64,000 nt of DNA from Methanobacteriota archaeon (GTDB taxonomy: Archaea > Thermoplasmatota > Thermoplasmata > SG8-5 > JAGLSY01): positions 1 to 64,000 of the forward strand of contig JAEHCQ010000007.1 in assembly GCA_020696385.1 (NCBI GenBank). Direction: 5' to 3'. The translations under genes were made by a program, and so were the position numbers. Shown here piece after piece: positions 18,503-32,334 of this stretch. Position 1 is the first letter of the stretch. Each line of letters opens with the position of its first letter. The notes under the pieces were generated by a model. It ran no database searches. It was not told the DNA's origin and saw only the letters and a list, made by a program, of their open reading frames with translations.

Positions 18503-18574
18503 ATGAAAAGCCAAAGACTTTTCATATGGAAGGCTAAACGCCTTCCATCAAAGGAGGACGGAGGAATATCATGA
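18503..18574 (+). CDS. Candidate leader micro-ORF, 23 aa (MKSQRLFIWKAKRLPSKEDGGIS)
   Basis: Reads through two hairpins; its TGA overlaps the hdrC ATG (ATGA). Confidence 0.35.
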   Translation: MKSQRLFIWKAKRLPSKEDGGIS

Positions 18575-19005
18575 CCGAGGTATCGGGTAATGAATGCAGG
18601 GAAAAGCACGAACTTGAAAAGATCAGAATAGATCATAGCCTTGCCGAGGAATTGAAAGATCTTTGTGAGGAAGAATTTTTTGGTTGTTACCAATGCGGCA
18701 CCTGTGCTGCAGGATGTCCATTTATAGAAGAGATGGACCTAACACCAGATGAGGTCATCAGACATGTGATCATGGACAAGAGAGAAGTTCTCAGCTCCAA
18801 GACCATATGGCTCTGCGCATCTTGTTATACATGCGCCGAAAGATGCCCCCGAGACATCAATATCACAAAATTGATGGAAGCTCTCAGGCAGATCATATTG
18901 AGGAACAGTGTGGACAAGACCGATATGAGTTGCATCACGGATGAAGAACTGAAAAAGATACCTCAGATAGCTTTCGTCAGTCTTTTCAGAAAGAACATTG
19001 GGTGA
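18571..19005 (+). CDS. hdrC: Heterodisulfide reductase subunit C-like
   Basis: CYQCGTCAAGCP and WLCASCYTCAERCPR. Confidence 0.9.
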   Translation: MTEVSGNECREKHELEKIRIDHSLAEELKDLCEEEFFGCYQCGTCAAGCPFIEEMDLTPDEVIRHVIMDKREVLSSKTIWLCASCYTCAERCPRDINITKLMEALRQIILRNSVDKTDMSCITDEELKKIPQIAFVSLFRKNIG

Positions 19006-19886
19006 ATTCAATGGATCTACTATATTATCCCGGTTGTACGGTCAAGACCTCTGCCAAATGCCTTGAGACCTCAGGTTTCGCTGTGATCAAGGCCCTTGGT
19101 CACAATCTTGTAGAGATGGAAGAATGGAATTGCTGTGGAGTGGTCGCATCCCTGACAGATGATGATCTAATGCACCATCTGGCCCCACTGAGGAACTTGA
19201 TCCACGCTGAAGATCAAGGCCAGGAAAAGATCGTCACGTTCTGTGACATGTGCGGCAATACCCTCAAGCAGACAAACCTCCGAGTACAAGAAAGCGAAGA
19301 AAATCTTGATACTTTAAACAATTTTATGGATCAGGAAGAGGATTATAAAAAGAGTGTGGATGTCCAACATTTTCTGGAATTCCTAAGGGACGATGTCGGC
19401 TTTGCCAAATTGAAGAAGTCGGTGAAGAAACCACTGAAGGGAATGAAGATCATGCCCTATTACGGTTGTACGATGTTGAGACCACGAGAAGTTGCCATAG
19501 ATGATGCGGAAGAACCAAGGATACTGGCTGATCTACTGAAGTCCCTGGGAGCGGAGGTTATCGACACACCTTACAAGATAGAATGCTGTGGCTCCTATCA
19601 TACTATAGAACAGAAAGATCTGACTGCAAAGAGAGCTTATCGAATATCATCCTCAGCACAGAAAGCTGGTGCTGATGCCATCATGCTCTCATGCCCGATG
19701 TGCAAGTTCAATCTGGACCACAGGGGCAAGGATGCTGAATCCCTCTATGATGGATATAAGCAGATACCAGTTTATTATTACACACAATTAATCGCAATGG
19801 CCATGGGCCTGGATATAGAAGAATGTGGATTCGATTCACATACGGTTGACCCGATACCGCTCCTGAAGGAGAAAAAGGTCATATAA
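19002..19886 (+). CDS. hdrB: Heterodisulfide reductase subunit B-like
   Basis: Two CCG domains: YYPGC..WNCCG..CDMC and YYGC..ECCG..CPMC. Confidence 0.92.
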   Translation: MNSMDLLYYPGCTVKTSAKCLETSGFAVIKALGHNLVEMEEWNCCGVVASLTDDDLMHHLAPLRNLIHAEDQGQEKIVTFCDMCGNTLKQTNLRVQESEENLDTLNNFMDQEEDYKKSVDVQHFLEFLRDDVGFAKLKKSVKKPLKGMKIMPYYGCTMLRPREVAIDDAEEPRILADLLKSLGAEVIDTPYKIECCGSYHTIEQKDLTAKRAYRISSSAQKAGADAIMLSCPMCKFNLDHRGKDAESLYDGYKQIPVYYYTQLIAMAMGLDIEECGFDSHTVDPIPLLKEKKVI

Positions 19887-19899
19887 GGAAGGCGTTCGA

Positions 19900-20652
19900 A
19901 TGACCACTGAAACGAACACTGAGATTGCTCGAAAAACGAATGATGCTGATACTCCCGAGGTCAGCGCACTTAATATCTATGTAATGGGTAAGAGATACCT
20001 GGTACCAGCTGGCTTGACCATAATGGCAGCCATTGAATATGCGGGTTACCAGTTCGTAAGAAGCTGTGGCTGTAGAGCCGGTTTCTGCGGTGCATGCTCC
20101 ACGGTCTACAGGAAGGATGATGAGCAAAAACTACACTTTGCTCTGGCCTGCCAGACAACTGTCGAGGATGGAATGTATCTGGTTCAAATACCATTCGTTC
20201 CCGCCGCCAAGGCCAAATACATGATAGAGGACCTGAAGGCAGAGGAAAACACGATACTCTCTCTTTACCCGGAGATCGCCAGATGCGTCTCCTGCAACAC
20301 ATGCACCAAGTCATGTCCCCAGGACATCAAGGTCATGATGTACATCCAAAATGCTCTTAGGGGTGACATCGCAAAGGCAGCTGAACTATCGTTCGACTGT
20401 ATCCAATGCGGAATGTGCGCCATGAGATGCCCGGCAGATATCAAACACTATCATGTTGCACAGTTGGCTCGCAGACTGCGAGGCAAATACATCGATACCC
20501 TATCCAAGGACCTGAAAAAGAGGGTTGCCGAGGTAGAGGGAGGCCAATACGACAAAGAAATTGAAGAACTGGTCGGAATGAGTGAGGAGCAGTTAAGAGG
20601 CCTCTACAATAAGCGTGAGATTGAAGCTAAAAAGAAGAAGGAGGGTGAGTAG
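19900..20652 (+). CDS. Fumarate reductase/succinate dehydrogenase-like Fe-S subunit
   Basis: [2Fe-2S] motif GCRAGFCGAC...LACQ plus two CxxCxxCxxxCP. Confidence 0.8.
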   Translation: MTTETNTEIARKTNDADTPEVSALNIYVMGKRYLVPAGLTIMAAIEYAGYQFVRSCGCRAGFCGACSTVYRKDDEQKLHFALACQTTVEDGMYLVQIPFVPAAKAKYMIEDLKAEENTILSLYPEIARCVSCNTCTKSCPQDIKVMMYIQNALRGDIAKAAELSFDCIQCGMCAMRCPADIKHYHVAQLARRLRGKYIDTLSKDLKKRVAEVEGGQYDKEIEELVGMSEEQLRGLYNKREIEAKKKKEGE

Positions 20653-20653
20653 A

Positions 20654-20713
20654 ATGCGAGAACAAAGCGATTGCATTCTAAATCCCGAAATGAAATGGAG
20701 TGATTCAATATGA
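20654..20713 (+). CDS. Bridging micro-ORF / palindromic element 1, 19 aa (MREQSDCILNPEMKWSDSI)
   Basis: ATG 1 nt after the upstream TAG, behind GGAGGGTGA; its TGA overlaps the next ATG. Homologous to 28964 and 30082. Confidence 0.6.
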   Translation: MREQSDCILNPEMKWSDSI

Positions 20714-22356
20714 AACTCATAGACGGATATCCACAATATATGCTGGACTCCATCAAGAAGGTAGAAGATAAGAGAATGGAGAACCTGAAGAAGAGCATCG
20801 AGCCATTGACCATGGAAGAGCGTCAGGCTGTTCTCACACAATTTCATCCAGATTTCATGGATTCGAGCAAGCGCGCGGTGAAGGTAGGTGTGGACAAGGG
20901 CAATGAATCCTACAATGGAATAGTAGATCTCCTTGAATCCCCATCAATTCTGGACACCAGTGAAGTTGATCTTACCAAGATAGATTTCGATATTGACCTA
21001 CTCATAATCGGTGGTGGAGGGGCCGGAACAGTGGCTGCCCTTTTCGCTCTCGAGAATGGGGTTGAACTTGATAAAATCCTTATCACGACCAAACTGAGGC
21101 ATGGGGATGCGAATTCCATGATGGCTCAGGGAGGGATTCAGGCCGCGGATAGGCCAGAGGACAGCCCACCAATCCATTATCTGGACATTTATGGTGGAGG
21201 ACATTTCACCAATAAGCCCGAGCTGGCAAAGGCAATGGCAATGGATGCCCCGGGAATAATCAAATGGCATGAGGAACTGGGTGTCATGTACGACCGCCAC
21301 GACAACGGAGAATTCCAAGAACTCTCCGGTGGTGGAACATCGCGTAACAGGATGCACAGTGCGAAAGATTACACTGGCATGGAACTAATGAGGAATATCA
21401 GGGACAGGGCAAAGAACCTGGACATACCTGTGCTGGAATTCTGTCCAATAGTCGAGCTATTGCTGGATGACCAGGGCATTGTATCTGGCGGAGTGGCCTT
21501 CAATATTGAAACACATGAATACTATGTGATTAAGGCCAAAGCGACCATCATGGCAACAGGCGGAAGCGGTAGGCTACATCTGGCAGGATACCCGACAACC
21601 AACCATTACGGAGCAACGGGCGACGGTCTTGTCATGGCTTACCATGTGGGAGCCAACCTGAGAGACCTGGACACTATCCAGATACACCCAACAGGCGATA
21701 TCTACCCTGATCCGGTCATAGGTATCCTTTCTACAGAGAAGATAAGGGGATTGGGTGCAAAGCCAATAAACGTTCATGGAGACCCATTTGTTTTCCCATT
21801 GGAGCCAAGGGATGTTGAGTCCGCGGCCTTCCTCAAGGAATGCGACAAAGGCAATGGCATAACCACCCCGACAGGAATGCCAGGTATCTGGCTCGACTCA
21901 CCAATGATCGATATAATCCATGGAGAGGGAACTGTGTATGAGAAGCTGGCCGGAGAGGTCAGGAAGTTCAGAAGGTTCGGTATCGACATGGCCAAACATC
22001 CGATTCTAGTATACCCCACATACCACTACCAGAACGGTGGAGTGGAGATAAATGAGAAGTGCGAGACAGCCGTGCCGGGATTGTTCGCTGCTGGTGAGGT
22101 CACTGGCGGTGTCCATGGAAAGAACAGGCTGATGGGCAATTCACTTCTGGACTACAATGTGTTCGGCCGAAGAGCTGGAATATATGCTGCCGAATATGTG
22201 AAGACCAGAAAAGTTGGCAAGCTCTCACTGGCTCATATCGACGAGTACAATAAGGCGGTCGAAGAGGCCGGCCTGAAGAGTGGGGTCAAGGCACCCATAC
22301 TTCTGCCAGAGTACAGAGGGAAAGAAGCGCTGGCAAGAGCTCTAGATATACTGTAG
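20710..22356 (+). CDS. Fumarate reductase/succinate dehydrogenase-family flavoprotein
   Basis: IIGGGGAG, SMMAQGG, QIHPT, TEKIRG, PRD, HYQNGG, HGKNRLMGNSL. Confidence 0.85.
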   Translation: MKLIDGYPQYMLDSIKKVEDKRMENLKKSIEPLTMEERQAVLTQFHPDFMDSSKRAVKVGVDKGNESYNGIVDLLESPSILDTSEVDLTKIDFDIDLLIIGGGGAGTVAALFALENGVELDKILITTKLRHGDANSMMAQGGIQAADRPEDSPPIHYLDIYGGGHFTNKPELAKAMAMDAPGIIKWHEELGVMYDRHDNGEFQELSGGGTSRNRMHSAKDYTGMELMRNIRDRAKNLDIPVLEFCPIVELLLDDQGIVSGGVAFNIETHEYYVIKAKATIMATGGSGRLHLAGYPTTNHYGATGDGLVMAYHVGANLRDLDTIQIHPTGDIYPDPVIGILSTEKIRGLGAKPINVHGDPFVFPLEPRDVESAAFLKECDKGNGITTPTGMPGIWLDSPMIDIIHGEGTVYEKLAGEVRKFRRFGIDMAKHPILVYPTYHYQNGGVEINEKCETAVPGLFAAGEVTGGVHGKNRLMGNSLLDYNVFGRRAGIYAAEYVKTRKVGKLSLAHIDEYNKAVEEAGLKSGVKAPILLPEYRGKEALARALDIL

Positions 22357-22364
22357 GTGATCGT

Positions 22365-22625
22365 TTGATAGAAGTATTAGATGATTGGTGTAAAGGCTGT
22401 GAGATATGCGTGAACCGCTGCCCAGTCCAGGCACTTGAGATATCAGAGATCATGAACAAGAAGGGCGTTAGGGTTCCCAGGCTGAAGGCCGTGAACAAAT
22501 GCCACCAGTGCAGATTGTGCGAACAACTCTGCCCTGACTTTGCCATCACCGTGATAAAAGAAGAAAAGGAAGAAGGTGAAGAAAAAGAGTGCAAGCTCAT
22601 CATAGGAGGTGTTTGCGCTGACTGA
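22365..22625 (+). CDS. korD: 2-oxoacid:ferredoxin oxidoreductase delta subunit
   Basis: WCKGCEICVNRCP and CHQCRLCEQLCPDFAI. Confidence 0.85.
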   Translation: MIEVLDDWCKGCEICVNRCPVQALEISEIMNKKGVRVPRLKAVNKCHQCRLCEQLCPDFAITVIKEEKEEGEEKECKLIIGGVCAD

Positions 22626-22629
22626 TATA

Positions 22630-22668
22630 ATGAATATTATTAATGAATTAATTAAGGAGGGATTCTAA
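22630..22668 (+). CDS. Candidate bridging micro-ORF, 12 aa (MNIINELIKEGF)
   Basis: Starts 4 nt after the korD stop; TAA directly abuts the korA GTG. Confidence 0.35.
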   Translation: MNIINELIKEGF

Positions 22669-23859
22669 GTGAGATACGAACTAGACCCGGTAAGAGTGAG
22701 AAAGATCTTGGGAAATAAGAAACAATTCATAATGGGAGACATGGCAATTGCCTATGGTGGTCTTCTGGCAGGAGTGGGATTCTTCGGAGGATATCCGATC
22801 ACACCAGCCAGTGAAGTCGCGGAAGGTATGGCTCGTATGCTCCCGAGGGCAGGCGGAACCTTCATTCAGATGGAGGATGAGATAGCCAGTATGGCAGCGA
22901 TCATAGGAGCAGCGTGGAGCGGTACTAAGACAATGACCGCGACATCAGGCCCAGGTTTCTCATTGATGATGGAGAATTATGGATACGCGATAATGACCGA
23001 AACACCATGTGTCATTGCCAATGTCCAGAGAACAGGTCCATCAACTGGCCAGCCAACACAGGGTGCCCAAGGAGATATGCTTCAGACAAGATGGGGAAGT
23101 CATGGTGACATGATGGCCATCGCACTCTGCCCAAGCACGGTCCAAGAGTGCTTGGACATGACAATAGAGGCTTTCAACCTTTCCGAGAAATACAGGCATC
23201 CAGTCGTTCTTCTGGCAGATGGAGAAGTTGGTCACTTGAGAGAAAAAGTGGTCATTCCAGATGTTGACGAGATGGAGCTCATCGAAAGAATTGAAGCTAC
23301 TGTCGACAAGGACAAGTTCATACCCTACTCGGAATCTCAGACAAATCCTGGAAGCAAAGTTCCAGATTTCCCAACCTTCGGCTCTGGATACAGATCGTAT
23401 GTCACTGGCCTTACGCACAATGACATGGGATTCCCGGCAACTGACAAGCAGCCGGACCATGAGAGACTCATAAATCGTCTGGTCTCCAAGATCACAGACG
23501 ACCGTGAGAAGCTCACTGATGTTGAAGAGATCGAGCTGGAAGATGCGGAGATCGTCTTCGTAACATACGGAGCATCCGCCAGACCAGCAGAGAGCGCGGT
23601 CAGGATGGCGCGTGCGAAGGGCATCAAGGCAGGAATGTTGAGATTGAAACTCGTCTGGCCATTCCCGGAGAAGGCGATATATGAGCTTTCCAAGAAGGTG
23701 AGCAAGATCATTGTCCCCGAGATGAGCCTTGGCCAGATGGTCCACCCGGTCAGAGAGTTTGCGGCCAAGGATTGTGAGGTCATAGTAGCTCCAAAGGTCG
23801 GAGGAGTTATGCACCTTCCAGTTGAATTGCTCGCATACCTTGAGGAGGGATCACAATGA
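22669..23859 (+). CDS. korA: 2-oxoacid:ferredoxin oxidoreductase alpha subunit
   Basis: GYPITPASE, QMEDE, TATSGPGFSLM, QRTGPSTG. Confidence 0.93.
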   Translation: MRYELDPVRVRKILGNKKQFIMGDMAIAYGGLLAGVGFFGGYPITPASEVAEGMARMLPRAGGTFIQMEDEIASMAAIIGAAWSGTKTMTATSGPGFSLMMENYGYAIMTETPCVIANVQRTGPSTGQPTQGAQGDMLQTRWGSHGDMMAIALCPSTVQECLDMTIEAFNLSEKYRHPVVLLADGEVGHLREKVVIPDVDEMELIERIEATVDKDKFIPYSESQTNPGSKVPDFPTFGSGYRSYVTGLTHNDMGFPATDKQPDHERLINRLVSKITDDREKLTDVEEIELEDAEIVFVTYGASARPAESAVRMARAKGIKAGMLRLKLVWPFPEKAIYELSKKVSKIIVPEMSLGQMVHPVREFAAKDCEVIVAPKVGGVMHLPVELLAYLEEGSQ

Positions 23860-24737
23860 GCGAAATGATAAATCAAACCGAGATGCGCGAGAAATACCTT
23901 AGAAAAGGCATGCTGCCTAGTATTTTCTGTAATGGATGCGGACATGGTTCCTCACTGGATTACACTTTCAGAGCAATAGAGGAATTGGGTTTGGACCTGG
24001 ACAATATGGTCTTCGCATCTGGTATAGGGTGTTCCTCACGTATTCCTGGATACATTAATGCAGATGGATTGCACACAACACATGGCAGGTCACTGGCCTT
24101 TGCTACTGGTGTGAAAGCAGCCAACCCAGAATTAGATGTTGTTGTCTTCAGTGGTGACGGCGATGCAACTGGCATAGGTGGAAATCACTTCATCCATGCT
24201 GCCCGCCGTAACATCGATATAACTGTCATCATCCTCAATAATTTCATATATGGAATGACAGGCGGCCAGGTGGCTCCGACATCCCCTAAAGGGACCATAG
24301 CCACTACAGCACCATACGGTAACTTGGAAGGAGCATTCGATATAAGCGAGCTTGCCAAATCACTGGGTGCGGCATACGTAGCCAGATGGCCAGTGTTCTA
24401 CCCATCCCAGCCCATCAAGTCCATAAAGGATGCAATTCAGACCAAGGGATTTTCCCTGGTCGAGCTAATGTCACCATGCCCAACAGCATACGGCAGAAGG
24501 AACAAGCTCGGAAACATAAAGAAACTCTGGGATTGGTATGAGGACAACTCCATACTGGCAGAGGAATATGATAAGATTATGAATTACGGAACCGATGAAG
24601 AGAAAGCTGAAACCATCAACAAGATCAAGATAGGTGTGTTCCAGCATACGGAAAAGGTTGGATTCTTCGAGGCCTATGAGGAACAGATAGCGAATCTAAT
24701 GGCCAATGATGATAAGAAATGGGGTGGTTCAAAATGA
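23856..24737 (+). CDS. korB: 2-oxoacid:ferredoxin oxidoreductase beta subunit
   Basis: FCNGCG, SGIGCS, TPP motif GDGD...NN, YGMTGGQ. Confidence 0.93.
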   Translation: MSEMINQTEMREKYLRKGMLPSIFCNGCGHGSSLDYTFRAIEELGLDLDNMVFASGIGCSSRIPGYINADGLHTTHGRSLAFATGVKAANPELDVVVFSGDGDATGIGGNHFIHAARRNIDITVIILNNFIYGMTGGQVAPTSPKGTIATTAPYGNLEGAFDISELAKSLGAAYVARWPVFYPSQPIKSIKDAIQTKGFSLVELMSPCPTAYGRRNKLGNIKKLWDWYEDNSILAEEYDKIMNYGTDEEKAETINKIKIGVFQHTEKVGFFEAYEEQIANLMANDDKKWGGSK

Positions 24738-25276
24738 AGAAAGAAATTCAAGTAGCTGGATTCGGTGGACAGGGTGTTATCCTTTCTGGTTTCATAATCG
24801 GAAAGGCCGCATGTGTCTTCGCAGACCTCAATGCAGTACAGAGCCAGTCCTATGGTCCAGAGGCCAGAGGAGGAGCGGCAAAAACGGCTGTTATCATCTC
24901 GGATGAGACCATCGGATACCCAAGACCAACAAGCATCGATGTCTTTGTCTCAATGGCCCAGGAAGCCTTCAATTCATACCTACCAGACTGCCGTGATGAT
25001 ACTGTCTTGATCATAGATCCAGATCTTGTCACACAGAGCGACGTAGGAAGACCAGTCTACAAAGTAAGGGTCCAGAAGATCGCAGAAGACCTTGGCAATA
25101 AGATAGTTACCAATATTGCGATGGTCGGTGCACTGACCGGAATATATGACCTTGGTGTGCCTGATGAAGCAGTTAAGAAAGCGGTCATAGACAGTGTTCC
25201 AAAGAAGTTCATGGATCTGAATATAAATGCCTTTGAAAAAGGCCTCGAGGCGGGTAAGAATGCAAGACCAGAATGA
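24734..25276 (+). CDS. korC: 2-oxoacid:ferredoxin oxidoreductase gamma subunit
   Basis: AGFGGQG, SYGPEARGG; ATGA overlap with korB. Confidence 0.92.
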   Translation: MKKEIQVAGFGGQGVILSGFIIGKAACVFADLNAVQSQSYGPEARGGAAKTAVIISDETIGYPRPTSIDVFVSMAQEAFNSYLPDCRDDTVLIIDPDLVTQSDVGRPVYKVRVQKIAEDLGNKIVTNIAMVGALTGIYDLGVPDEAVKKAVIDSVPKKFMDLNINAFEKGLEAGKNARPE

Positions 25277-28200
25277 ATATTTCGAGCAGTACTACGAGGA
25301 AGTCGATCTTCATGATGATTATCTCATGATCCCCCCAGAGCTCGCGCTCTTGGAAGCTGAGGAAAATGAGGTCGAAGTGAAAAAGGATGAACTCGCAAAG
25401 AACAAGCTGGCTGCAGGCAGAAGAATAAACGGAGACGTGCTGATAGTAGGAGCTGGCATATCGGGTATGCAGGCTGCTCTGGACACAGCGGACAAAGGAT
25501 ATCGTGTTATTCTGATAGAGAAATCTTCCACGATAGGCGGGAACATGGTCAAGCTTGACAAGACCTTCCCGACAAATGACTGCTCCATATGCACGGCGGC
25601 CCCCAAGATGGTGGAAGTATCCAGACATCCGAACATCACCCTGATGACATATGCGGATGTAATGTCACTTGAAGGTGAGAAGGGAGACTTCACGGCTCAC
25701 ATATACAGGAAATCTGCCTATGTGGACCCAGATGTCTGTACCGGTTGCGGAGATTGCGCAACCGCCTGTCCAGTCGAGGTCGTAAATCCTTTTGATGACA
25801 AGCTGTCAATGAGAAAAGGAATATCTATCGAGTTCCCACAGGCTGTGCCAATTGTATATTCTATTAATTATGAGAATTGCGTCGGATGTGGCTCTTGCGA
25901 GAGAGTGTGCGATGCAGGCGCTATCTCGTTCCTCAGAAAGTCTGAAGATATTGAAGTTAAAATAGGCAGTGTGATCGTGGCAACTGGCTATGATCTCTTC
26001 GAACCTCTGGAAATGAGGAAGGAATACGGTTATGGAAAGTATCCGAATGTAATAACCGCGATGCAGTTCGAGAGGCTATTATCGTCCTTCGGTCCCACCG
26101 AGGGAAAGATACTGAGACCTTCTGATGGAACAGCACCCAAGTCAATTGGCTGGATACAATGCGTTGGATCCAGAAGCAAGCAGCTTGGATTTCCATATTG
26201 TTCCAGGGTCTGCTGTATGTACGCGACCAAGGAAGCGGCCATAGCCAAGGAGATCGATGATAGCCTTGAAGTCACAATATTCTACATGGATATCAGAGCT
26301 TATGGAAAGGATTTCCAACAATATTATGATAAAGCCAAGGACATGGGAGTGAATTACGTTCGTGCCAGACCATCCTCCGTATATCAGAACGAGGATGGAA
26401 GTATCGCTGTAAGGTACATGGACACCCACACAAGGGAAATACTGGACATGAACATCGATATGCTGGTACTTTCCACGGCCATCATGCCTTCTAAAGAGAA
26501 CCCTAAGCTGGGTAAAATGCTCGGAATCGGTGTGGACCATAATGGATTCTTCGAATCCGGTTCTATTGTTTCAGATCCGATCCAAACCACAAGAGATGGA
26601 GTATTCCTGGCAGGCTGTAATCAAGGCCCGAAGGATATTCCAGACAGTGTGGCGATGGCCAGCGGAGCAGCCGCGAGAGCTGTTCAGGCCATTGTGGAGA
26701 GAGAGAAAGCGGAGCCAGTTAAGCCACCAGAACAAAAAGATGTGTCTGGTGATAAGCCAAAGATCGGTGTCTTCGTTTGCCATTGTGGAAAGAATATCAA
26801 TGGCTACCTTGATTGCGCCGATGTCGCGGATACCGTCCGTGATGATCCGAATGTGGAATATTCCACGGATGTTATGTTCGCTTGCTCTGAAGATTCACAG
26901 ACTGATATTAGAAAGACCATTGAGGAAAAAGGTCTCAATCGTGTGATAGTCGCGGCATGTTCGCCGATAACACATGGCGGCCTGTTCCAGGACACCTTGG
27001 AAGAATCTGGCCTTAACAAATATCTTTTCGAATTCGCCAATATCAGACAGCATTGCTCCTGGGTCCATTCCCATGACAGGGAGAAGGCCACCCAGAAGGC
27101 AAAAGACCTTGTGAGAATGGGTATTGCCAAATCCGTGCTTCTTCAGCCATTGAGTCAGGAAGAAGTGGATGTCATACCAGTTACTGTCATCATCGGAGGA
27201 GGCATCGCGGGCATGAAAGCCGCAATGGCACTTTCCGACATGGAGATCGAGACACATATCATCGAGATGGGTGACAAACTTGGTGGAAATCTGAACAAAC
27301 TTCACAGTTTATTCCCCACAGAGCTTGATCCAAGCCAACTTGTCAATGAGATGCAGACGAAGATCGATGCATCCGATTACATCAAGGTCCACCTCAACAC
27401 CACATTGGAAAATGTCGAGGGTTTCATTGGTAATTTCAAGGCATACATGAAAGGCCCGGATGGAGATACCGAATTGAAATTCGGAACAGCCATCATCGCA
27501 TCTGGCTTTGGAGAGATAGACATGGCCGGGAAATACGGCTATGGAAATAATCCGAAAATAATGACCCAGATGGAATTGGAAAGCCGTCTCATAGCAAATG
27601 ATCTTGAAAAGCCAAAATCGATTGTGATGATCAACTGCGCAGGAGCCATGGATGAAGAGAGACCATGGTGCTGCAGGATAGGCTGTGGCGTGTCCATAAA
27701 GAATGCCAAGCTCTTGAAAGAGAAGTACCCAGATGCGGATATCAATATCCTTTACCGGGACATACGTGTCTTCGGTAAAGAAGAGGAAGAATACTTCGCC
27801 GATGTCATCGAGAACCTGCATGTGAAGATAACAAGGTACTCGGATGTCGAGAAACCACAGGTCATTATCAATGATGATGGATCGGTCATGGTCAAGGTAA
27901 GGGATCAGATATACAATGACGAGATGGAATTATCTGCCGATCTGCTGGTACTCACTGCCCAGACAGAAGGAAGCGAATCCACGGACAAACTCCAACAGAT
28001 GTTCAAAATACCTGTTGGACCCGGACATTTCTTCATAGAGGCGCATGCCAAGATCCGACCACTTGATTTCGCAACAGATGGTGTTTACTTCTGTGGAAGC
28101 GCGCATTTCCCCAAGAACCTGGCAGACGCTATCGCCCAGGCCGAGGGAGCCGCTTCAAGAGCTGCCATTCCGATAATGAAACAGAGACTTGTATTGGAAG

Positions 28201-28433
28201 GTATAACCGCCATAGTCGAGCCAGATATGTGCGTGGGCTGTGGAATTTGTGCAGAGGCGTGCCCCTTCGGAGCCATTGATCTTATCAAAGGCAAGGCCGT
28301 GGTAAATGAAGCACTGTGCAAAGGTTGCGGATTATGCAATGCCACCTGCAGATCAGGAGCTATACAGCAAAAGGGCTTCAATGATCACCAGATTCTCAGT
28401 ATGATCAAAAGCTCATTGAACGAGGTGGTATGA
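25260..28433 (+). CDS. hdrA: Large, internally duplicated HdrA-family flavoprotein (start uncertain: 25260, 25326 or 25377)
   Basis: GAGISG, LDKTFPTNDCSIC, QCVGSR..YCSRVCCMY, VFVCHCG, ACSP, a second FAD motif GGGIAG, ferredoxin motifs. Confidence 0.93.
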   Translation: MQDQNEYFEQYYEEVDLHDDYLMIPPELALLEAEENEVEVKKDELAKNKLAAGRRINGDVLIVGAGISGMQAALDTADKGYRVILIEKSSTIGGNMVKLDKTFPTNDCSICTAAPKMVEVSRHPNITLMTYADVMSLEGEKGDFTAHIYRKSAYVDPDVCTGCGDCATACPVEVVNPFDDKLSMRKGISIEFPQAVPIVYSINYENCVGCGSCERVCDAGAISFLRKSEDIEVKIGSVIVATGYDLFEPLEMRKEYGYGKYPNVITAMQFERLLSSFGPTEGKILRPSDGTAPKSIGWIQCVGSRSKQLGFPYCSRVCCMYATKEAAIAKEIDDSLEVTIFYMDIRAYGKDFQQYYDKAKDMGVNYVRARPSSVYQNEDGSIAVRYMDTHTREILDMNIDMLVLSTAIMPSKENPKLGKMLGIGVDHNGFFESGSIVSDPIQTTRDGVFLAGCNQGPKDIPDSVAMASGAAARAVQAIVEREKAEPVKPPEQKDVSGDKPKIGVFVCHCGKNINGYLDCADVADTVRDDPNVEYSTDVMFACSEDSQTDIRKTIEEKGLNRVIVAACSPITHGGLFQDTLEESGLNKYLFEFANIRQHCSWVHSHDREKATQKAKDLVRMGIAKSVLLQPLSQEEVDVIPVTVIIGGGIAGMKAAMALSDMEIETHIIEMGDKLGGNLNKLHSLFPTELDPSQLVNEMQTKIDASDYIKVHLNTTLENVEGFIGNFKAYMKGPDGDTELKFGTAIIASGFGEIDMAGKYGYGNNPKIMTQMELESRLIANDLEKPKSIVMINCAGAMDEERPWCCRIGCGVSIKNAKLLKEKYPDADINILYRDIRVFGKEEEEYFADVIENLHVKITRYSDVEKPQVIINDDGSVMVKVRDQIYNDEMELSADLLVLTAQTEGSESTDKLQQMFKIPVGPGHFFIEAHAKIRPLDFATDGVYFCGSAHFPKNLADAIAQAEGAASRAAIPIMKQRLVLEGITAIVEPDMCVGCGICAEACPFGAIDLIKGKAVVNEALCKGCGLCNATCRSGAIQQKGFNDHQILSMIKSSLNEVV

Positions 28434-28520
28434 ATGGGTTCGTCAACACTCACCATTCATCTCGAAGTTTCCAAATTTATGGAAACGTCCCATCCATCTT
28501 GCTTTCAGGAGGTGGAGTAA
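28434..28520 (+). CDS. Bridging micro-ORF, 28 aa (MGSSTLTIHLEVSKFMETSHPSCFQEVE)
   Basis: Fills the hdrA-mvhD gap exactly (TGA|ATG ... TAA|ATG). GAGGTGG SD precedes both ATGs; contains two hairpins. Confidence 0.55.
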   Translation: MGSSTLTIHLEVSKFMETSHPSCFQEVE

Positions 28521-28967
28521 ATGACTGGAGATGAAAAAGCAAAGGAAGAATTCGAGCCGAAAATAATCGGATTCCTGTGCAACTGGTGCTCGTATACGGG
28601 AGCGGATCTGGCTGGTGTGTCACGTCTACAGTACCCGTCAAATATTCGGATCATCAAGGTCATGTGCTCTGGTCGTGTCAATCCACAATTCGTACTCAAG
28701 GCTTTCCAAGAGGGAGCGGATGGAGTTCTTGTTTCTGGATGCCACCCTGGTGATTGCCATTATATCGAGGGTAATTACCACGCCCGCCGCAAGCTCGCGA
28801 TGCTCTCGGACATACTTGAATTCACGGGCATCGAGCCAGAGAGATTCCAGATGTCATGGGTATCGGCCTCGGAAGGACAGAAGTTCGCCAAGATCGTTAC
28901 CGCCTTCACAGAGCAGGTGAAGGAACTTGGGCCTCAGAAGAAACTTGCTGGAGGTGAGGATGAATGA
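28521..28967 (+). CDS. mvhD: MvhD/FlxC-type [2Fe-2S] subunit
   Basis: FLCNWCSYTGAD, VMCSGRV, GCHPGDCHY, WVSASEG. Confidence 0.94.
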   Translation: MTGDEKAKEEFEPKIIGFLCNWCSYTGADLAGVSRLQYPSNIRIIKVMCSGRVNPQFVLKAFQEGADGVLVSGCHPGDCHYIEGNYHARRKLAMLSDILEFTGIEPERFQMSWVSASEGQKFAKIVTAFTEQVKELGPQKKLAGGEDE

Positions 28968-29074
28968 GAGAGCAAAGCGATTTCATTCAGGATTTCTCAG
29001 TGCCTTCGAACTCTTCAAAATGCAAACTACGTTCGCATTTTGAAAATCCCGTAATGAAGTGGAGGGATTCGTAA
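28964..29074 (+). CDS. Bridging micro-ORF / palindromic element 2, 36 aa (MREQSDFIQDFSVPSNSSKCKLRSHFENPVMKWRDS)
   Basis: ATGA overlap with the mvhD stop and TAATG overlap with the next start; open throughout. Confidence 0.6.
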   Translation: MREQSDFIQDFSVPSNSSKCKLRSHFENPVMKWRDS

Positions 29075-30081
29075 TGGTCGATTATAATGCAATGACCCAG
29101 GAGATACGAGCCAAGGCAAAGGCAATGCTAGAGAACAAAGAGGTCAAGTACATCATTGGCTGGGAAAGGGGTGCTAATTCATTCATATCCAGGCCAGTCA
29201 TCATAAGGGATGCAGGCGACACGGACAGGCTGGTATGGAATCCAGGCTGTGTGGACAATTTGACCAGATACCTTGTTGAGGAAATGCAATACAAGCCCAA
29301 GAGGGGTGAGGAACCAGACCTCGGTCCAGTTGGTATCATTGTGAAGCCATGCGATTCTAAATCAATTGTCGAACTTATCAAGGAAAATATCGTACCCCGA
29401 GAGAGGGTGAAGATCATCGCTGTTACAAATATTGGCACAGTGGAAACTAACAAGCTCAGAAAAGTTCTTCAGAAGATACCACAGGACAAGAGAGCTGGCA
29501 TCGATATCTTACAGGATGATAATGAGTTCATCATCAAGTACGATGGTGGAGAACTGAAAGTTCCGCGACCGGAATTGTTAGCCAACAAATGCGAAACATG
29601 TGTCACACACAATCCAGTGATACATGATGTCGTCATTGGCGATAAGATAGAGGGCTTTGAGGCCGATAAATGGGCCGATTTGGCTGAACTGGAAAGCATG
29701 AGCCCCGAGGAAAGATGGAAGTTCTGGGAAGACCAGATCTCCAAATGCGTCAGATGCTATGCTTGCCGTGATTCATGTTCACTCTGCTACTGTGCGGAAT
29801 GTGTATTTGACAAGGAGAAACCATTCACCTGGATAGACAAAACTGTAGACGTAAGCAACAATATGTTCTACCATCTGGTCAGAGCAATGCACCTAGCTGG
29901 TAGGTGTGTGGATTGTGGCGAATGCGAGCGTGTTTGCCCGGTGAACATTCCTATCAGGAAACTCAACCGCCTTCTTTTGAAGAGCGCGAAAGACCGATAC
30001 AAGATATACCCTGGCATGAACCCGGAGGACAAGCCAATGTTCGGAAGTTATGACATTGCAGATCCTGACGAGGTGGTTTGA
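29074..30081 (+). CDS. FlxD/FdhB-like 4Fe-4S protein
   Basis: KPCDSKS, CVRCYACRDSCSLCYC, RAMHLAGRCVDCGECERVCP. Confidence 0.85.
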   Translation: MVDYNAMTQEIRAKAKAMLENKEVKYIIGWERGANSFISRPVIIRDAGDTDRLVWNPGCVDNLTRYLVEEMQYKPKRGEEPDLGPVGIIVKPCDSKSIVELIKENIVPRERVKIIAVTNIGTVETNKLRKVLQKIPQDKRAGIDILQDDNEFIIKYDGGELKVPRPELLANKCETCVTHNPVIHDVVIGDKIEGFEADKWADLAELESMSPEERWKFWEDQISKCVRCYACRDSCSLCYCAECVFDKEKPFTWIDKTVDVSNNMFYHLVRAMHLAGRCVDCGECERVCPVNIPIRKLNRLLLKSAKDRYKIYPGMNPEDKPMFGSYDIADPDEVV

Positions 30082-30186
30082 ATGCGAGAACAAAGTGATT
30101 GCAATCAGAACTTCGAAAAAATCGAAGTTTTGAATGCACGAATGAATTCGCGCATTCAAAATCCCGGCATGGAATGGAGGGATTGA
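30082..30186 (+). CDS. Bridging micro-ORF / palindromic element 3, 34 aa (MREQSDCNQNFEKIEVLNARMNSRIQNPGMEWRD)
   Basis: ATG abuts the upstream TGA behind GAGGTGG; stop lies 2 nt before the next ATG. Confidence 0.6.
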   Translation: MREQSDCNQNFEKIEVLNARMNSRIQNPGMEWRD

Positions 30187-30188
30187 AT

Positions 30189-31220
30189 ATGGCGGAAATG
30201 ATCATCAAGAAAGTGAGAGTGGATGGCCTATTCGAAGCAATGAAAGATTTCGAGGTATATGGACCGATTACCAAGGACATGATCACAAGATACCAGAAAA
30301 CAACTGGAACTCCAGACCTGGTCTTCAAAAGCTCGAGGAAACCACCCAAAGAAGTATTTTTCCCTCAGACAGAAAAGATGTTCGATCTGGTCAAGGATGG
30401 AACAAGATTCGTTGGGGCAAAGGATGTACCTCCGGGTGACAAGCCGATTCTACTATTCGGACTAAGGCCTTGTGATGGACGTGCATTGAATGTACTGGAC
30501 GAGCTGTTCAACTGGGATTACACTGATCCATATTACGTGGATAAAAGAAAAAAATCCACGGTCATTGGACTTGCCTGTACCCTACCAGCCATGCCGAAGG
30601 ACAATTGCTTCTGCACATCCATGGGCGGCAGCCCGGGATCCAGCGAGGGAATGGACATGCTCTGGGTGGACATAGGAGATTCTTACTATGTCGAGTCTCT
30701 TAATGATAAGGGCAATGCCATACTGGAACTTGGAAAAGGCATATTCGAGGAATCTGGCGATGATGTAAGATCATCGGCTGGAAAGGCCATAGAGGATGCT
30801 GCCAATGCCATTGATCGTAAACTGGATACAAGCGGAGTGCGTGATGCGCTTGCCAAGTCCTTTGACTACAATTATTGGGACGAGTTCTCCAAGAGATGCA
30901 TGGGATGCGGCATATGCACCTTCCTGTGTCCGACCTGCCATTGCTTCGATATACAAGATATCGTAAAGAATGGCGAAGGCGTGAGACAGAGATCATGGGA
31001 TTCCTGCCAGTTCGACTATTACAGCATACATGCTTCAAATCATAATCCAAGGCCAGAGAAGAAGAACAGACAACGCAACCGTGTTTATCACAAATTCTAC
31101 TATTCGGAGAATAAACTGGGACTTGTTGGATGTGTAGGTTGCGGAAGATGTATCAATCTCTGCCCGGTGAATATCGATATCATTGAAGTGATCCAAGGCG
31201 CGAAGGAGTTGAGCCAGTGA
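30189..31220 (+). CDS. FlxB/AsrA-like 4Fe-4S protein
   Basis: GLRPCD, CFCTS, CMGCGICTFLCPTCHCF, WDSC, CVGCGRCINLCP. Confidence 0.85.
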   Translation: MAEMIIKKVRVDGLFEAMKDFEVYGPITKDMITRYQKTTGTPDLVFKSSRKPPKEVFFPQTEKMFDLVKDGTRFVGAKDVPPGDKPILLFGLRPCDGRALNVLDELFNWDYTDPYYVDKRKKSTVIGLACTLPAMPKDNCFCTSMGGSPGSSEGMDMLWVDIGDSYYVESLNDKGNAILELGKGIFEESGDDVRSSAGKAIEDAANAIDRKLDTSGVRDALAKSFDYNYWDEFSKRCMGCGICTFLCPTCHCFDIQDIVKNGEGVRQRSWDSCQFDYYSIHASNHNPRPEKKNRQRNRVYHKFYYSENKLGLVGCVGCGRCINLCPVNIDIIEVIQGAKELSQ

Positions 31221-32149
31221 CGAGAGAGAACGTTTACAAGCCAGAGACAGCGACAGTAACAGATATACAGCTCGAAGCTGGCGGCGGCAGACCCATCAGG
31301 ACCATGACCTTCCAGGTTGATGATCCAACCGAGAGGAAGAAATTCCTGCATAAGCCAGGCCAATTCATAATAATCAGTTACTTCGGAACAGGCGAGAGCG
31401 TCTTCGCAATATCCTCGCTACCAAACGAGGATGGTATCATCCAGGTATCCGCCATGAAGGTAGGAAATGTAACCGGAAGACTTCATGCTCTTGCAGTTGG
31501 TGACAAGGTCGGCGTTAGAGGGCCTTACGGCAAGGATTTCCCCGTCGACGAATGGAAGGGGAAGAACCTTGTGTTCATAGGCGCGGGCATCGGTATATCG
31601 CCTGTAAGGGCTGTTTATCAATACGTACTAACGCCGGAGCAAAGGAAAAACTACGGTGATGTGACATTGATCTACGGCGCAAGGACACCTGCGGATCTCG
31701 CCTTTAAAGATGAGTTCAAAGAGATGGACACCAGAGATGATCTGAATCTCTGGCTTTGCATCGACTGGAAGTTCGGGCCAAAGGGACCGATAGAGGGAAA
31801 TGCACACACAGACTGGCCAGCGATCAATATGAGCGCACCAGGCGATACAGTCGTTCCCGAAGGCATTAACAAATTCACCGCCTTCGTTCCTCAGCTCGTC
31901 GAGGTCGTGAAGCCGAAGCCAGAAAATGCCATCGTGGTAACCTGCGGACCTCCAATCGCGATCAAGTTCATAACCCAGGCCTTAGCCAAATTGGGCTGGA
32001 GCCCGGAACAGGTTTACACAACATTGGAGAACAGGATGAAGTGCGGTATTGGCAAGTGCGGCAGATGTAATGTTGGCGACAACTATGTCTGCAAGGACGG
32101 GCCAGTCTTCACCCAGAAAGAGATATCCGAGATGTTCGACGACCAGTGA
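31217..32149 (+). CDS. FlxA/AsrB/HydG-like FAD- and NAD(P)-binding [2Fe-2S] subunit
   Basis: PGQF, RGPYG, GAGIGISP, CGPP, MKCGIGKCGRC..CKDGPVF. Confidence 0.88.
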   Translation: MTRENVYKPETATVTDIQLEAGGGRPIRTMTFQVDDPTERKKFLHKPGQFIIISYFGTGESVFAISSLPNEDGIIQVSAMKVGNVTGRLHALAVGDKVGVRGPYGKDFPVDEWKGKNLVFIGAGIGISPVRAVYQYVLTPEQRKNYGDVTLIYGARTPADLAFKDEFKEMDTRDDLNLWLCIDWKFGPKGPIEGNAHTDWPAINMSAPGDTVVPEGINKFTAFVPQLVEVVKPKPENAIVVTCGPPIAIKFITQALAKLGWSPEQVYTTLENRMKCGIGKCGRCNVGDNYVCKDGPVFTQKEISEMFDDQ

Positions 32150-32334
32150 AGCTTATCCTCGATCAAAGTATGAGTGAGCCATAGCCATTATTGAGCTATA
32201 GCTCTAATCTATGGATAAATAGAATAATGTAAAAATAGTTAAAACAAGAATAACAATAAATTATTAAATTTAAAAGTCAGACCATAAACTATATAATCGT
32301 GTTCAAACATAATAAGATTAATTCGGTGGGTAAT

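What the first reader, a model, noticed from the sequence alone, without database searches (positions are those of the whole stretch)
20652..30191. Family of palindromic inserts that encode frame-preserving 'bridge' micro-ORFs between genes of the Hdr-Flx operon
Seen: three homologous intergenic elements (20654-20713, 28964-29074, 30082-30186). Each starts at an ATG overlapping or within 1 nt of the upstream stop codon, behind that gene's terminal SD motif. Each ends in a stop overlapping or within 2 nt of the next start codon. They share a 5' hairpin (GAATGC-GAGAACAAAGCGATT-GCATTC) and a 3' hairpin (AATCCC...GGGATT) that contains the next gene's SD. Copy 2 has a compensatory change, GAATGA/TCATTC. 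They translate to MREQSD-x(n)-NPxMxWxD. Copies 2 and 3 carry unrelated extra hairpins adding 54 and 51 nt, both multiples of 3 with no stop codon. Established: translational coupling by termination-reinitiation occurs in archaeal operons, and palindromic elements with coding potential are known inside ORFs (Rickettsia RPE). Inference: a mobile or modular hairpin element targets stop/start junctions and is kept only if ribosomes can read across it. The ribosome would melt the SD-sequestering 3' hairpin and hand on to the next gene, tuning subunit stoichiometry or mRNA processing. I know of no description of this arrangement.
Basis: partly seen in the sequence, partly recalled or inferred. Interest (0 to 1): 0.88.

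Follow-up and report, generated by a model that had tools for sequence, protein, structure and literature searches.

The report
Translated hairpin inserts between archaeal genes
A small hairpin-forming repeat has spread through the gene junctions of one group of uncultured Thermoplasmata archaea, and the copies that sit between two genes keep a tiny reading frame running from the first gene's stop to the next gene's start, probably so that ribosomes are still handed on across the insert.

Summary
The three elements exist as described, and a fourth, sequence-unrelated one was missed at 28434-28520. They belong to a modular repeat family found in one Thermoplasmata family: 22-48 hairpin-A copies in each of 4 genomes of one genus, 3 in a sister genus, and 0 in 16 of 17 other genomes of the order.

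Hairpins A and C show strong compensatory covariation, with G-U far outnumbering A-C, which points to a sense-strand structure. At least 17 copies occupied in sister species are empty in this genome. Junctions 1, 2 and the new one are empty in a species with 87-94% identical flanks. Empty sites are tight SD-stop/start overlaps.

The bridging ORF depends on context:
- Where an upstream gene ends at the element, 41 of 50 copies are bridged or fused in frame; dinucleotide shuffles predict 12.
- Where no gene ends there, 15 of 50 are bridged.
- By orthologous site the figures are 36/44 against 12/36.

The likeliest reading is a mobile structured insert kept tolerable by a translated relay ORF that preserves termination-reinitiation coupling. 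No expression data exist.

This is not unprecedented. Mycobacterial MIRUs are described in the same way. I rate it a new archaeal, hairpin-built variant of a known kind.

The parts
20650..20680 (+). Element 1, hairpin A. A 10-bp stem (including G-U and A-U), then tandem G.A/A.G, then R-Y and C-G closing a 3-nt loop. It contains the micro-ORF ATG at 20654.
   Evidence: Covariation on A1 and A2; RNAalifold predicts the same structure; CM hit of 51.8 bits.
20654..20713 (+). Micro-ORF 1, 19 codons. It starts 1 nt after the upstream TAG (20650-52), and its TGA overlaps the downstream ATG (20710) as ATGA.
   Evidence: The site is empty in G002 and G001.
20681..20705 (+). Element 1, hairpin C. A 6-bp stem with a 13-nt loop. 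SD2 (GGAG, 20697-20700) sits at the loop/stem border.
28434..28520 (+). It is one 28-codon ORF from TGA|ATG to TAA|ATG, between the HdrA-like gene and mvhD.
   Evidence: The site is empty in G002 and in three other Thermoplasmata loci. The same module is part of the junction-3 element of G002.
28959..28991 (+). Element 2, hairpin A, ATGA variant with a compensating T on the 3' arm. Its TGA (28965-67) is the stop codon of mvhD.
28964..29074 (+). Micro-ORF 2, 36 codons. ATGA overlap upstream and TAATG overlap with the downstream ATG at 29074.
   Evidence: The site is empty in G002 and in L083-L085, and filled in G003 (L082).
28992..29044 (+). Element 2, modules B1 (degenerate) and B2 (hairpin at about 29014-29044).
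   Evidence: Aligns with B1 and B2 of the other long copies; folding results.
29045..29069 (+). Element 2, hairpin C with SD2.
30077..30109 (+). Element 3, hairpin A. The upstream gene stops at the TGA 30079-81 inside its 5' arm.
30082..30186 (+). Micro-ORF 3, 34 codons. Its TGA (30184-86) lies 2 nt before the downstream ATG at 30189.
   Evidence: The orthologous site in G002 is also occupied, by different modules forming a 46-codon ORF.
30109..30159 (+). Element 3, hairpins B1 (30109-30129) and B2 (30130-30159).
30160..30184 (+). Element 3, hairpin C with SD2.

Best explanation
These are copies of a lineage-restricted, modular, hairpin-forming interspersed repeat. Its modules are A, optionally B1 and B2, then C or D.

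The repeat inserts between a gene's Shine-Dalgarno sequence and its start codon, always in the sense orientation. It brings a TGA-ATG at its 5' edge and a fresh SD plus a short spacer at its 3' edge.

When it lands in a tight stop/start junction of an operon, the native SD now serves the element's own ATG. The element is kept only in forms where a single short ORF runs from the upstream stop, through the hairpins, to a stop at or next to the downstream start.

Ribosomes finishing gene 1 would reinitiate on this relay ORF, unwind the hairpins including the one holding SD2, terminate at gene 2's start, and reinitiate there. Termination-reinitiation coupling would therefore survive a 55-140 nt insertion.

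The peptide itself would be a by-product.

Shown: the family, its sense-strand structure, insertion polymorphism at tight junctions, and context-dependent conservation of the ORF.

Inferred: translation, reinitiation, and the benefit.
For: **Family and distribution**
- The covariance model R1 finds 23 genuine hairpin-A copies in G000. It finds 48, 27 and 22 in three congeneric genomes and 3 in a sister genus. Only 1 of 17 other genomes of the order has a hit.
- In all 23 G000 copies hairpin A lies on the same strand as the nearest downstream start codon found by the script, 53-128 nt ahead.

**Structure**
- Across 40 short copies from 4 genomes, 95.4% of cells are paired and 13 of 18 pairs show double changes. 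0 of 500 shuffles reach this, and slid controls reach at most 41%.
- RNAalifold independently gives the same two hairpins, and four hairpins in the long forms.
- The invariant G-U pair and 52 G-U/U-G cells against 2 A-C/C-A cells indicate a sense-strand fold.
- The two 'synonymous' third positions of the peptide (GAA/GAG and AGT/AGC) are in fact one base pair: GC in 21 copies, AU in 14.

**Mobility**
- Junctions 1, 2 and the new one are empty in G002, whose flanks are 87-94% identical.
- 17 sites filled in G002 or G003 are empty in G000.
- The junctions on both sides of mvhD are TAATG, TGATG or TAAATG in three further Thermoplasmata loci.

**Context dependence of the ORF**
- Copies with an upstream gene end within -12..+4 nt: 41 of 50 bridged within 8 nt or fused. 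Other copies: 15 of 50 (Fisher p = 2.5e-7).
- By orthologous site: 36/44 against 12/36 (p = 1.2e-5).
- The ATG frame has no interior stop in 44 of 50 such copies, against 10 and 9 of 50 for the other two frames. Dinucleotide shuffles predict 12.1 of 50 bridged.
- ATG is present in 46 of 50 against 32 of 50.
- The intercistronic copies are not younger: they average 7.6 mismatches to the consensus, against 5.7 for the others.
- Five orthologous sites, plus junction 2 in G000 and G003, are occupied next to an upstream gene end in two species with different module content or sequence. Their ORFs are 18/18, 17/39, 34/46, 36/19, 35/54 and 36/36 codons, and all are bridged in both species.
- The ATGA variant of the stem, with a compensating partner, occurs in 14 of 50 copies against 1 of 54. 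In 8 of the 14 it is the upstream gene's stop.
- An annotation-free scan found 30 of 381 co-directional spacers of 30-200 nt bridged, where 9.1 were expected. 10 of the 30 carry hairpin A and at least 4 carry other modules of the family.

**Why a relay would be needed**
- In Haloferax and E. coli, intergenic distances of about 20 nt almost abolish termination-reinitiation (abstract of PMC10666635).
- This organism uses SDs at coupled starts: 85 of 112, against 16 of 112 at random coding positions.
Against: - There are no expression, ribosome-profiling or peptide data, and no RNA run was listed.
- 9 of 50 copies next to an upstream gene end are not bridged: 3 lack a start codon, 5 stop early and 1 runs past the start. 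Several of these are long composites.
- Gene ends and starts come from my own ORF and SD heuristics. Six downstream starts were reset by eye after seeing the data. Three of those moved a copy into the bridged class.
- Copies are related by descent, so the tests overstate independence. The site-level count only partly cures this.
- Hairpin C is a weak fold: 6 bp closing a 13-nt loop. In the single-sequence minimum-energy folds it did not form in element 1, though it did in elements 2 and 3.
- 15 of 50 copies away from a gene end are also bridged, so part of the signal is built into the consensus sequence.
- The mobilising machinery is unknown.
Confidence: 0.7

Rival explanations
1. The open frame is a passive property of a recently spread element. 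The master copy happens to carry TGA-ATG at one end and a stop near the other, and recent insertions have simply not decayed. No ribosome needs to read them.
For: - The consensus itself is open in the ATG frame.
- 15 of 50 copies away from any gene end are bridged too.
- Insertion polymorphism between species with 87-94% identical flanks shows some copies are young.
Against: - Intercistronic copies are more diverged from the consensus than the others, not less: 7.6 against 5.7 mismatches.
- Five orthologous sites, plus junction 2 in G000 and G003, have different module content or sequence in two species and are still bridged in both.
- Leader copies of the same subfamilies carry point-mutation stops (MRE*, or stops in loop C) that are nearly absent from intercistronic copies.
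- Stem variants that create the upstream stop are compensated on the partner arm, and are confined to intercistronic copies: 14/50 against 1/54.
Confidence: 0.15
2. The primary role is that of an RNA element bound by a trans-acting factor or acting as an mRNA stabiliser or processing signal, shared by about 25 highly expressed transcription units. On this view the micro-ORF only keeps the spacer covered by ribosomes, for example against cleavage or premature termination, and is not a reinitiation relay.
For: - The internal loop of hairpin A is almost invariant: G17, A18, G19, A20, A29 and T30 are identical in all 40 sequences.
- The G-U over A-C bias points to a sense-strand fold.
- Leader copies persist at orthologous sites in 2-3 species without any ORF, upstream of genes whose N-termini look like NAC, L10e, S8e and DnaG. 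At the NAC-like site the two species differ by a compensatory change in the upper stem.
- Whole elements fold at -17 to -44 kcal/mol, with z-scores of -2.5 to -5.8.
Against: - No Rfam family matches.
- The loop lacks the 3-nt bulge of a K-turn.
- This reading does not by itself explain why the ORF ends are pinned to the flanking stop and start: upstream offsets of 0, +1 or +4 in 35 of 50 copies, and downstream gaps of -4..+2 in 33 of 39 bridged copies.
- It can coexist with the main explanation rather than replace it.
Confidence: 0.1
3. The micro-ORFs encode a family of functional small proteins (MREQSDCIQ...).
For: - The N-terminal nine residues are conserved.
- An SD-like motif precedes the ATG in 43 of 50 intercistronic copies.
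Against: - The conserved residues are exactly those encoded by the covarying hairpin A, and the apparent synonymous sites form a base pair.
- Beyond that, the sequence and the length (16-54 codons) vary freely, even at orthologous sites.
- Module D gives an unrelated peptide at the same kind of junction.
- 15 of the 54 copies away from a gene end have no start codon at that position: AAG 10, ATA 3, AAA 1, ACA 1.
Confidence: 0.03

Closest known systems
Mycobacterial interspersed repetitive units (MIRUs; Supply et al. 1997). I saw this only as described in two reviews, PMC12548453 and PMC3184786 (passages read); the original paper was not seen.
   Same: - Both are short (40-100 bp) interspersed repeats in the intergenic regions of operons, co-oriented with the genes.
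- Both show filled and empty orthologous sites.
- Both contain a small ORF whose ends overlap the stop and start codons of the flanking genes. This is interpreted as keeping translational coupling so that the insertion does little harm.
   Different: - The host is an archaeon, not an actinobacterium.
- The element is built from discrete hairpin modules with compensatory covariation and an invariant tandem G.A loop.
- It donates a new SD in a hairpin.
- Copies also occupy 5' leaders, without an ORF.
- No flanking tetranucleotide direct repeats were seen in the empty/filled pairs I inspected.
- Tandem arrays are rare.
- Sequence relatedness was not tested, because I had no MIRU sequence in hand.
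Neisseria REP2 repeats, as described in PMC3184786 (passages read).
   Same: [quoted passage not shown]
   Different: REP2 is described as carrying a promoter and fusing its start to the downstream ORF. Here most copies end in a stop at the downstream start and sit inside operons.
BOX elements of pneumococcus, and MITE/REP-type palindromic repeats (reviews PMC3184786 and PMC10969869, passages read).
   Same: [quoted passage not shown]
   Different: - No terminal inverted repeats or target-site duplications were seen.
- Orientation is strictly sense.
- The insertion point is pinned between the SD and the start codon.
Rickettsia palindromic elements (RPE).
   Same: Both are palindromic repeats that stay open in frame where they are translated.
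   Different: RPEs sit inside protein-coding genes as in-frame insertions. Here only 2 of the 50 copies next to an upstream gene end, and 5 of the 50 others, are fused in frame to the downstream gene. The rest are separate micro-ORFs.

Membership tests
MIRU-like intercistronic repeats with a coupling ORF (a functional class) | Multi-copy short repeat in the intergenic regions of operons, co-oriented with the genes. | tested here: met
   There are 23 copies in G000, each with hairpin A on the same strand as the nearest downstream start codon found. Three congeners hold 22-48 copies each.
MIRU-like intercistronic repeats with a coupling ORF (a functional class) | An internal ORF whose ends overlap or abut the flanking stop and start codons. 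| tested here: met
   41 of 50 copies next to an upstream gene end are bridged or fused. Upstream offsets of 0, +1 or +4 occur in 35 of 50 copies. Downstream gaps of -4..+2 occur in 33 of 39 bridged copies.
MIRU-like intercistronic repeats with a coupling ORF (a functional class) | Filled and empty orthologous sites. | tested here: met
MIRU (the mycobacterial sequence family itself) | Sequence homology to MIRU units, and flanking tetranucleotide direct repeats. | tested here: not met
   No direct repeats flank the inserts in the pairs inspected. Homology was not tested, because I held no MIRU sequence. The host is an archaeon, so this is an analogue and not a member.
MITE | Terminal inverted repeats and target-site duplications. 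| tested here: not met
   The two ends are separate hairpins (A, and C or D), not inverted copies of each other. The insert replaces the 2-8 nt between SD and ATG without any duplication.
REP/RAYT or IS200/IS605-derived palindromic elements | A cognate Y1 transposase whose element ends match the repeat hairpins. | tested here: inconclusive
   G000 has one Y1_Tnp gene, at C50:2010-2357. Its 3.3-kb surroundings share no more than 10-nt words with the modules. Relatives and other transposase types were not examined.
K-turn / K-loop (L7Ae-binding) | Tandem sheared G.A pairs next to a 3-nt bulge, or a loop that replaces the C stem. | tested here: not met
   The tandem G.A/A.G is present and invariant. 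It is followed directly by a covarying R-Y pair (GC 21, AU 14) and a C-G pair closing a 3-nt loop, with no bulge. The definition of a K-turn is recalled, not taken from a call.
Any curated RNA family (Rfam 15) | A covariance-model match. | tested here: not met
   There were 0 matches at E <= 10 over window 18000-33000, both strands.

The most novel reading that the evidence does not exclude
The family is more than a tolerated parasite. On this reading it is a self-propagating 'coupling cassette' whose invariant hairpin-A loop is the docking site of a trans-acting factor.

Its spread would then have wired about 25 highly expressed units into one post-transcriptional regulon. By the N-termini of their products these look like ribosomal proteins, thermosome, NAC, DnaK, and Hdr/Mvh/Flx-, oxidoreductase- and hydrogenase-type operons. 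The relay ORF would let the same module work inside operons.
Probability: 0.15. Interest if true: 0.85.

Novelty: new variant of a known kind. Interest (0 to 1): 0.66.

Why it matters
Experiments in Haloferax and E. coli show that termination-reinitiation coupling collapses once genes are about 20 nt apart (abstract of PMC10666635).

Here evolution seems to have run the complementary experiment dozens of times. Inserts of 55-140 nt of stable hairpin were dropped into overlapping junctions of operons, several of which encode subunits of redox enzyme complexes. The inserts persist in the forms that restore an unbroken chain of translation.

That gives a natural, comparative test bed for four things:
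- the distance rule;
- the 'deliver a ribosome' role of very short ORFs;
- how a mobile element can lower its own cost;
- dual coding, where stem bases change to make a stop codon and the partner base follows.

In the searches I ran, which are named under Tried and rejected, I found no archaeal counterpart of the MIRU principle in print. This case would extend that principle to archaea and to structured RNA modules.

There is also a practical point. Such micro-ORFs and leader hairpins are likely to confuse start-codon calling in these genomes. In this window the longest-ORF starts at 29059 and 30099 lie inside elements.

Tried and rejected
**K-turn idea.** I first read the hairpin-A loop as a K-loop that would bind L7Ae. 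I dropped this when covariation showed an R-Y pair stacked directly on the G.A pairs, with no bulge.

**Multi-ORF relay.** I wrote a chain-following script for the composite elements that fail the single-ORF test. With TTG and GTG starts and 3-codon ORFs allowed it finds chains almost anywhere. I did not count its results, except to correct one downstream start: L040, a TTG overlapping the stop.

**Expression.** The look-up of sequencing runs listed no RNA holder for window 28300-30400. None was listed, which is not the same as none existing.

**Mobilising enzyme.** The single Y1 transposase locus shows no similarity to the modules.

**Other collections.**
- A scan of viral contigs for hairpin A found 0.
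- A scan of metagenome contigs for the 19-nt core gave 117 stretches, about what chance predicts for 16 fixed bases by my own estimate. 80 were returned as loci. Of the 81 matches checked on them, 2 had complementary arms, and by eye only 1 (L238) is a true element.

**16S rRNA.** The assembly holds no SSU rRNA (a motif search also found nothing). The anti-SD could therefore not be read, and SD use was shown statistically instead.

**Unbiased clustering.** Clustering of intergenic gaps collapsed into one 158-member single-linkage cluster and was not used.

**Limits of the census.** The census regex missed a few covariance-model hits that contain indels, for example G000 C11:38083, G000 C22:314732 and G002 L065. 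Two regex false positives in G000 were removed before counting. G001 and G003 copies too close to contig ends were not fetched.

**Literature searches behind the statement that no archaeal counterpart is in print.**
- translational coupling / archaea / termination-reinitiation / operon.
- miniature inverted-repeat / archaea / Shine-Dalgarno / intergenic. 0 papers.
- the MIRU terms.
-.
- archaea / intergenic repeat / stem-loop / mobile / translational coupling.

None of these produced an archaeal case. Subscription journals and supplementary files were not searched.

**What I saw of each paper.**
- PMC10666635: abstract and outline.
- PMC12548453, PMC3184786 and PMC10969869: passages found by term.
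- PMC6728339: search listing only.
- Supply et al. 1997: not seen.

Full report
**1. What is in the window**

- Both shared motifs occur exactly three times. 0 of 100 dinucleotide shuffles gave a match.
- Each element begins with an ATG next to or overlapping the upstream stop: TAG-a-ATG at 20650-56, ATGA at 28964-67, and TGA|ATG at 30079-84.
- Each ends with a stop next to or overlapping the next start: ATGA at 20710-13, TAATG at 29072-76, and TGA-at-ATG at 30184-91.

A fourth element was missed. It lies at 28434-28520 and is made of a different module (D). It too is a single ORF, 28 codons, running from TGA|ATG to TAA|ATG.

By Pfam the genes involved are:
- a CCG-domain protein;
- an Fe-S subunit, then junction 1, then a FAD_binding_2 flavoprotein;
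- two 2-oxoacid:ferredoxin oxidoreductase subunits;
- a 1068-aa HdrA-like protein, then the new junction, then MvhD;
- junction 2, then an Fe-S protein, then junction 3, then an Fe-S protein;
- a FAD/NAD-binding protein.

The closest public relatives of the MvhD gene are uncultured Thermoplasmata MAGs.

**2. A genome-wide, lineage-restricted, modular family**

The conserved loop of the 5' hairpin occurs about 20 times in the genome (2.28 Mb, 50 contigs), always just upstream of a start codon.

A covariance model of hairpin A (R1) gave the following:
- 23 genuine copies in G000;
- 48, 27 and 22 in three genomes of the same genus, and 3 in a sister genus;
- hits in only 1 of 17 other genomes of the order. 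All 22 genomes held for the order were searched.

Rfam has nothing like it.

Copies are built from modules.
- A is the conserved hairpin.
- B1 and B2 are optional hairpins.
- C is a hairpin carrying the downstream gene's SD.
- Other 3' modules, such as D, can replace C.

The 'extra' hairpins of copies 2 and 3 are the same B1 and B2 modules, diverged from each other. They are not unrelated. RNAalifold predicts four hairpins in the long forms, and 14 of 34 pairs show double changes.

**3. Structure is under selection, on the sense strand**

On 20 G000 copies, 93.8% of cells pair and 8 of 13 pairs show changes on both sides.

On 40 short A+C copies from four genomes:
- 95.4% of cells pair, and 13 of 18 pairs show double changes;
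- 0 of 500 shuffles reach this, and slid controls reach at most 41%;
- hairpin C alone has 5 of 6 pairs with double changes;
- RNAalifold finds the same fold without being told.

The stem contains an almost invariant G-U pair. G-U/U-G cells (52) far outnumber A-C/C-A cells (2). The fold therefore belongs to the transcribed strand.

Hairpin A reads as follows: a long stem, then G-U, A-U, tandem G.A/A.G, R-Y and C-G, closing a 3-nt loop.

The two positions that look like synonymous third-codon changes in 'MREQS' are the R-Y pair (GC 21, AU 14). The conservation of the peptide's N-terminus is thus explained by the RNA.

There is no 3-nt bulge, so this is not a K-turn.

In hairpin C only the last G of GGAG and the 3' extension of the SD are paired. 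In module D the SD is buried in an 8-bp stem.

Whole elements fold at -17 to -44 kcal/mol, with z-scores of -2.5 to -5.8.

**4. The elements come and go at tight junctions**

The orthologous operon of G002 has flanks 87-94% identical.
- It lacks element 1, the new element and element 2. It carries overlapping or adjacent stop and start codons there instead.
- G001 also lacks element 1.
- Junction 3 is occupied in both G000 and G002, but by different modules (A+B1+B2+C against A+x+D).

The reverse also holds. 17 sites occupied in G002 or G003 are empty in G000: L043, 45, 46, 47, 50, 52, 54, 55, 62, 63, 64, 66, 67, 74, 75, 79 and 81.

Three more Thermoplasmata loci have TAATG, TGATG or TAAATG at both junctions flanking mvhD. 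The tight junction is therefore the likely ancestral state.

The insert replaces the 2-8 nt between the native SD and the native start.
- I saw no target duplication and no terminal inverted repeats.
- The last one or two codons and the stop of the upstream gene often change.
- After insertion the native SD sits at the usual distance from the element's ATG, and the element supplies a new SD for the gene.

This organism does use SDs at coupled starts: 85 of 112, against 16 of 112 at random coding positions.

**5. The bridging ORF depends on context**

I took 104 hairpin-A copies with enough flank from five genomes. I split them by whether a long upstream ORF ends within -12..+4 nt of the ATG position ('I', 50 copies) or not ('U', 54 copies, 4 of them without an assignable downstream start).

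| Measure | I copies | U copies |
|---|---|---|
| Bridged within 8 nt, or fused in frame | 41/50 | 15/50 (Fisher p = 2.5e-7) |
| Same, after collapsing orthologous sites | 36/44 | 12/36 (p = 1.2e-5) |
| ATG at the position | 46/50 | 32/50 |
| No interior stop, ATG frame | 44/50 | 31/50 |
| No interior stop, other two frames | 10/50 and 9/50 | 19/50 and 11/50 |
| Mean mismatches to the consensus | 7.6 | 5.7 |

Further results:
- By genome, I copies are bridged or fused in 13/13 (G000), 10/14 (G002), 8/8 (G003), 10/14 (G001) and 0/1 (G004).
- Dinucleotide shuffles of the I copies predict 12.1 of 50 bridged.
- I copies are not younger than U copies, as the mismatch row shows.
- Five orthologous I sites, plus junction 2 in G000 and G003, are occupied in two species with different module content or sequence. 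Their ORFs are 18/18, 17/39, 34/46, 36/19, 35/54 and 36/36 codons, and all are bridged in both species.
- The ATGA variant of the stem, with its compensating base, occurs in 14 of 50 I copies and 1 of 54 U copies. In 8 of the 14 it is the upstream gene's stop codon. TAATG variants are compensated likewise.
- Upstream offsets cluster at 0 (21 copies), +4 (8) and +1 (6). Downstream gaps cluster at -4 (14), +2 (9) and +1 (5).
- A scan that ignores the family found 30 of 381 co-directional spacers of 30-200 nt bridged by one ATG ORF, where 9.1 were expected. 10 of the 30 carry hairpin A and at least 4 carry other modules of the family.

Caveats:
- Gene ends and starts are my own heuristics.
- Six downstream starts were reset by eye, and three of those moved a copy into the bridged class.
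- Copies are related by descent.
- 9 I copies fail the test, several of them long composites.

**6. Leader copies**

Some copies lie upstream of genes whose N-termini look like thermosome, NAC, L10e (a tandem pair), S8e and DnaG. No upstream gene ends nearby.
- They often carry AAG in place of ATG, or an early stop.
- They still keep both hairpins.
- Several persist at the same gene in two or three species.

The fold therefore has some value or persistence of its own. That could be recognition by whatever copies the element, or an RNA-level role such as a 5' stabiliser or a protein site. I could not decide between these.

**7. Mechanism proposed**

- *Shown:* the family, the sense-strand fold, insertion at SD/start junctions, and a context-dependent open frame pinned to both flanking codons.
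- *Established elsewhere:* about 20 nt of spacer nearly abolishes termination-reinitiation in an archaeon and a bacterium (abstract of PMC10666635). A short ORF can deliver a ribosome to a coupled gene (PMC12548453, passage).
- *Inferred:* the terminating ribosome restarts on the element's ATG using the native SD. It reads through and melts the hairpins, stops at the downstream start, and restarts there with the help of SD2. Insertions that break this chain inside operons are lost. In leaders there is no such filter.

**8. Comparison with what is known**

The logic has a bacterial precedent. MIRUs of mycobacteria are described as mobile repeats that insert at start codons, whose ORF overlaps the flanking stop and start. 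I did not see the 1997 paper itself.

Neisseria REP2 carries an RBS and an ATG. BOX elements are modular. RPEs are in-frame palindromes inside genes.

The present family differs in several ways:
- its host domain;
- it is a set of covarying hairpins with an invariant tandem-G.A loop;
- it donates an SD;
- it has ORF-less leader copies;
- it lacks flanking direct repeats.

My searches turned up no archaeal case.

- There is no RNA or ribosome data.
- There is no 16S rRNA in the assembly.
- The mobilising enzyme is unknown. One Y1 transposase gene is present, with no similarity to the modules.
- Supplements were closed and might hold MIRU-type catalogues that I could not see.

**Verdict.** The 'no precedent' claim is wrong. 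I rate this a new archaeal, structured variant of the MIRU principle.

Noticed in passing
window 28434-28520: A fourth junction element of a different module type (D) lies between the HdrA-like gene and mvhD. It is absent at this junction in G002, but the same module forms part of G002's junction-3 element.
   Followed up: yes
window about 34524-34690, minus strand: This is an empty site. The orthologous junction in G002 (L063) carries an A+C element with TTG in place of ATG. G000 has a short native spacer here.
   Followed up: partly
G000 C33:92974-93010 and downstream: This hairpin-A copy has no SD2 module. Its ATG is in frame with the downstream gene (494 codons open, GcvPB-like by its sequence, named from recall), so the element may be translated as an N-terminal extension.
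   Followed up: partly
G000 C22, minus strand; script coordinates 82251-82360 counted along the reverse strand: A spacer made of a tandem repeat forms one ORF, a roughly 12-residue unit repeated about three times, from the upstream stop to the downstream start. It is a MIRU-like tandem, unrelated in sequence to the hairpin family.
   Followed up: no
G000, genome-wide: Other strand-biased words occur in 20-35 copies each, one at 25:1 and one at 35:6 between strands. They point to further repeat families, possibly CRISPR arrays or another interspersed repeat.
   Followed up: no
G000 C50:2010-2357 (-), locus L163: This is the only IS200/IS605-type Y1 transposase gene in the assembly (100 bits). 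It shows no similarity to the repeat modules.
   Followed up: partly
window 29059 and 30099: Longest-ORF starts for the two Fe-S protein genes (GTG 29059, TTG 30099) lie inside the elements. Automatic start calling in these genomes is likely to over-extend genes into the repeats.
   Followed up: partly
G000, whole assembly: No archaeal SSU rRNA gene was found in the 94%-complete assembly.
   Followed up: yes
L084 (Thermoplasmata MAG locus), junction upstream of mvhD: A native, element-free junction reads SD-ATTT-TAATG, almost the same as the 5' flank of the element (SD-ATTTGA-ATG). The element's 5' edge may derive from an ordinary coupled junction.
   Followed up: no
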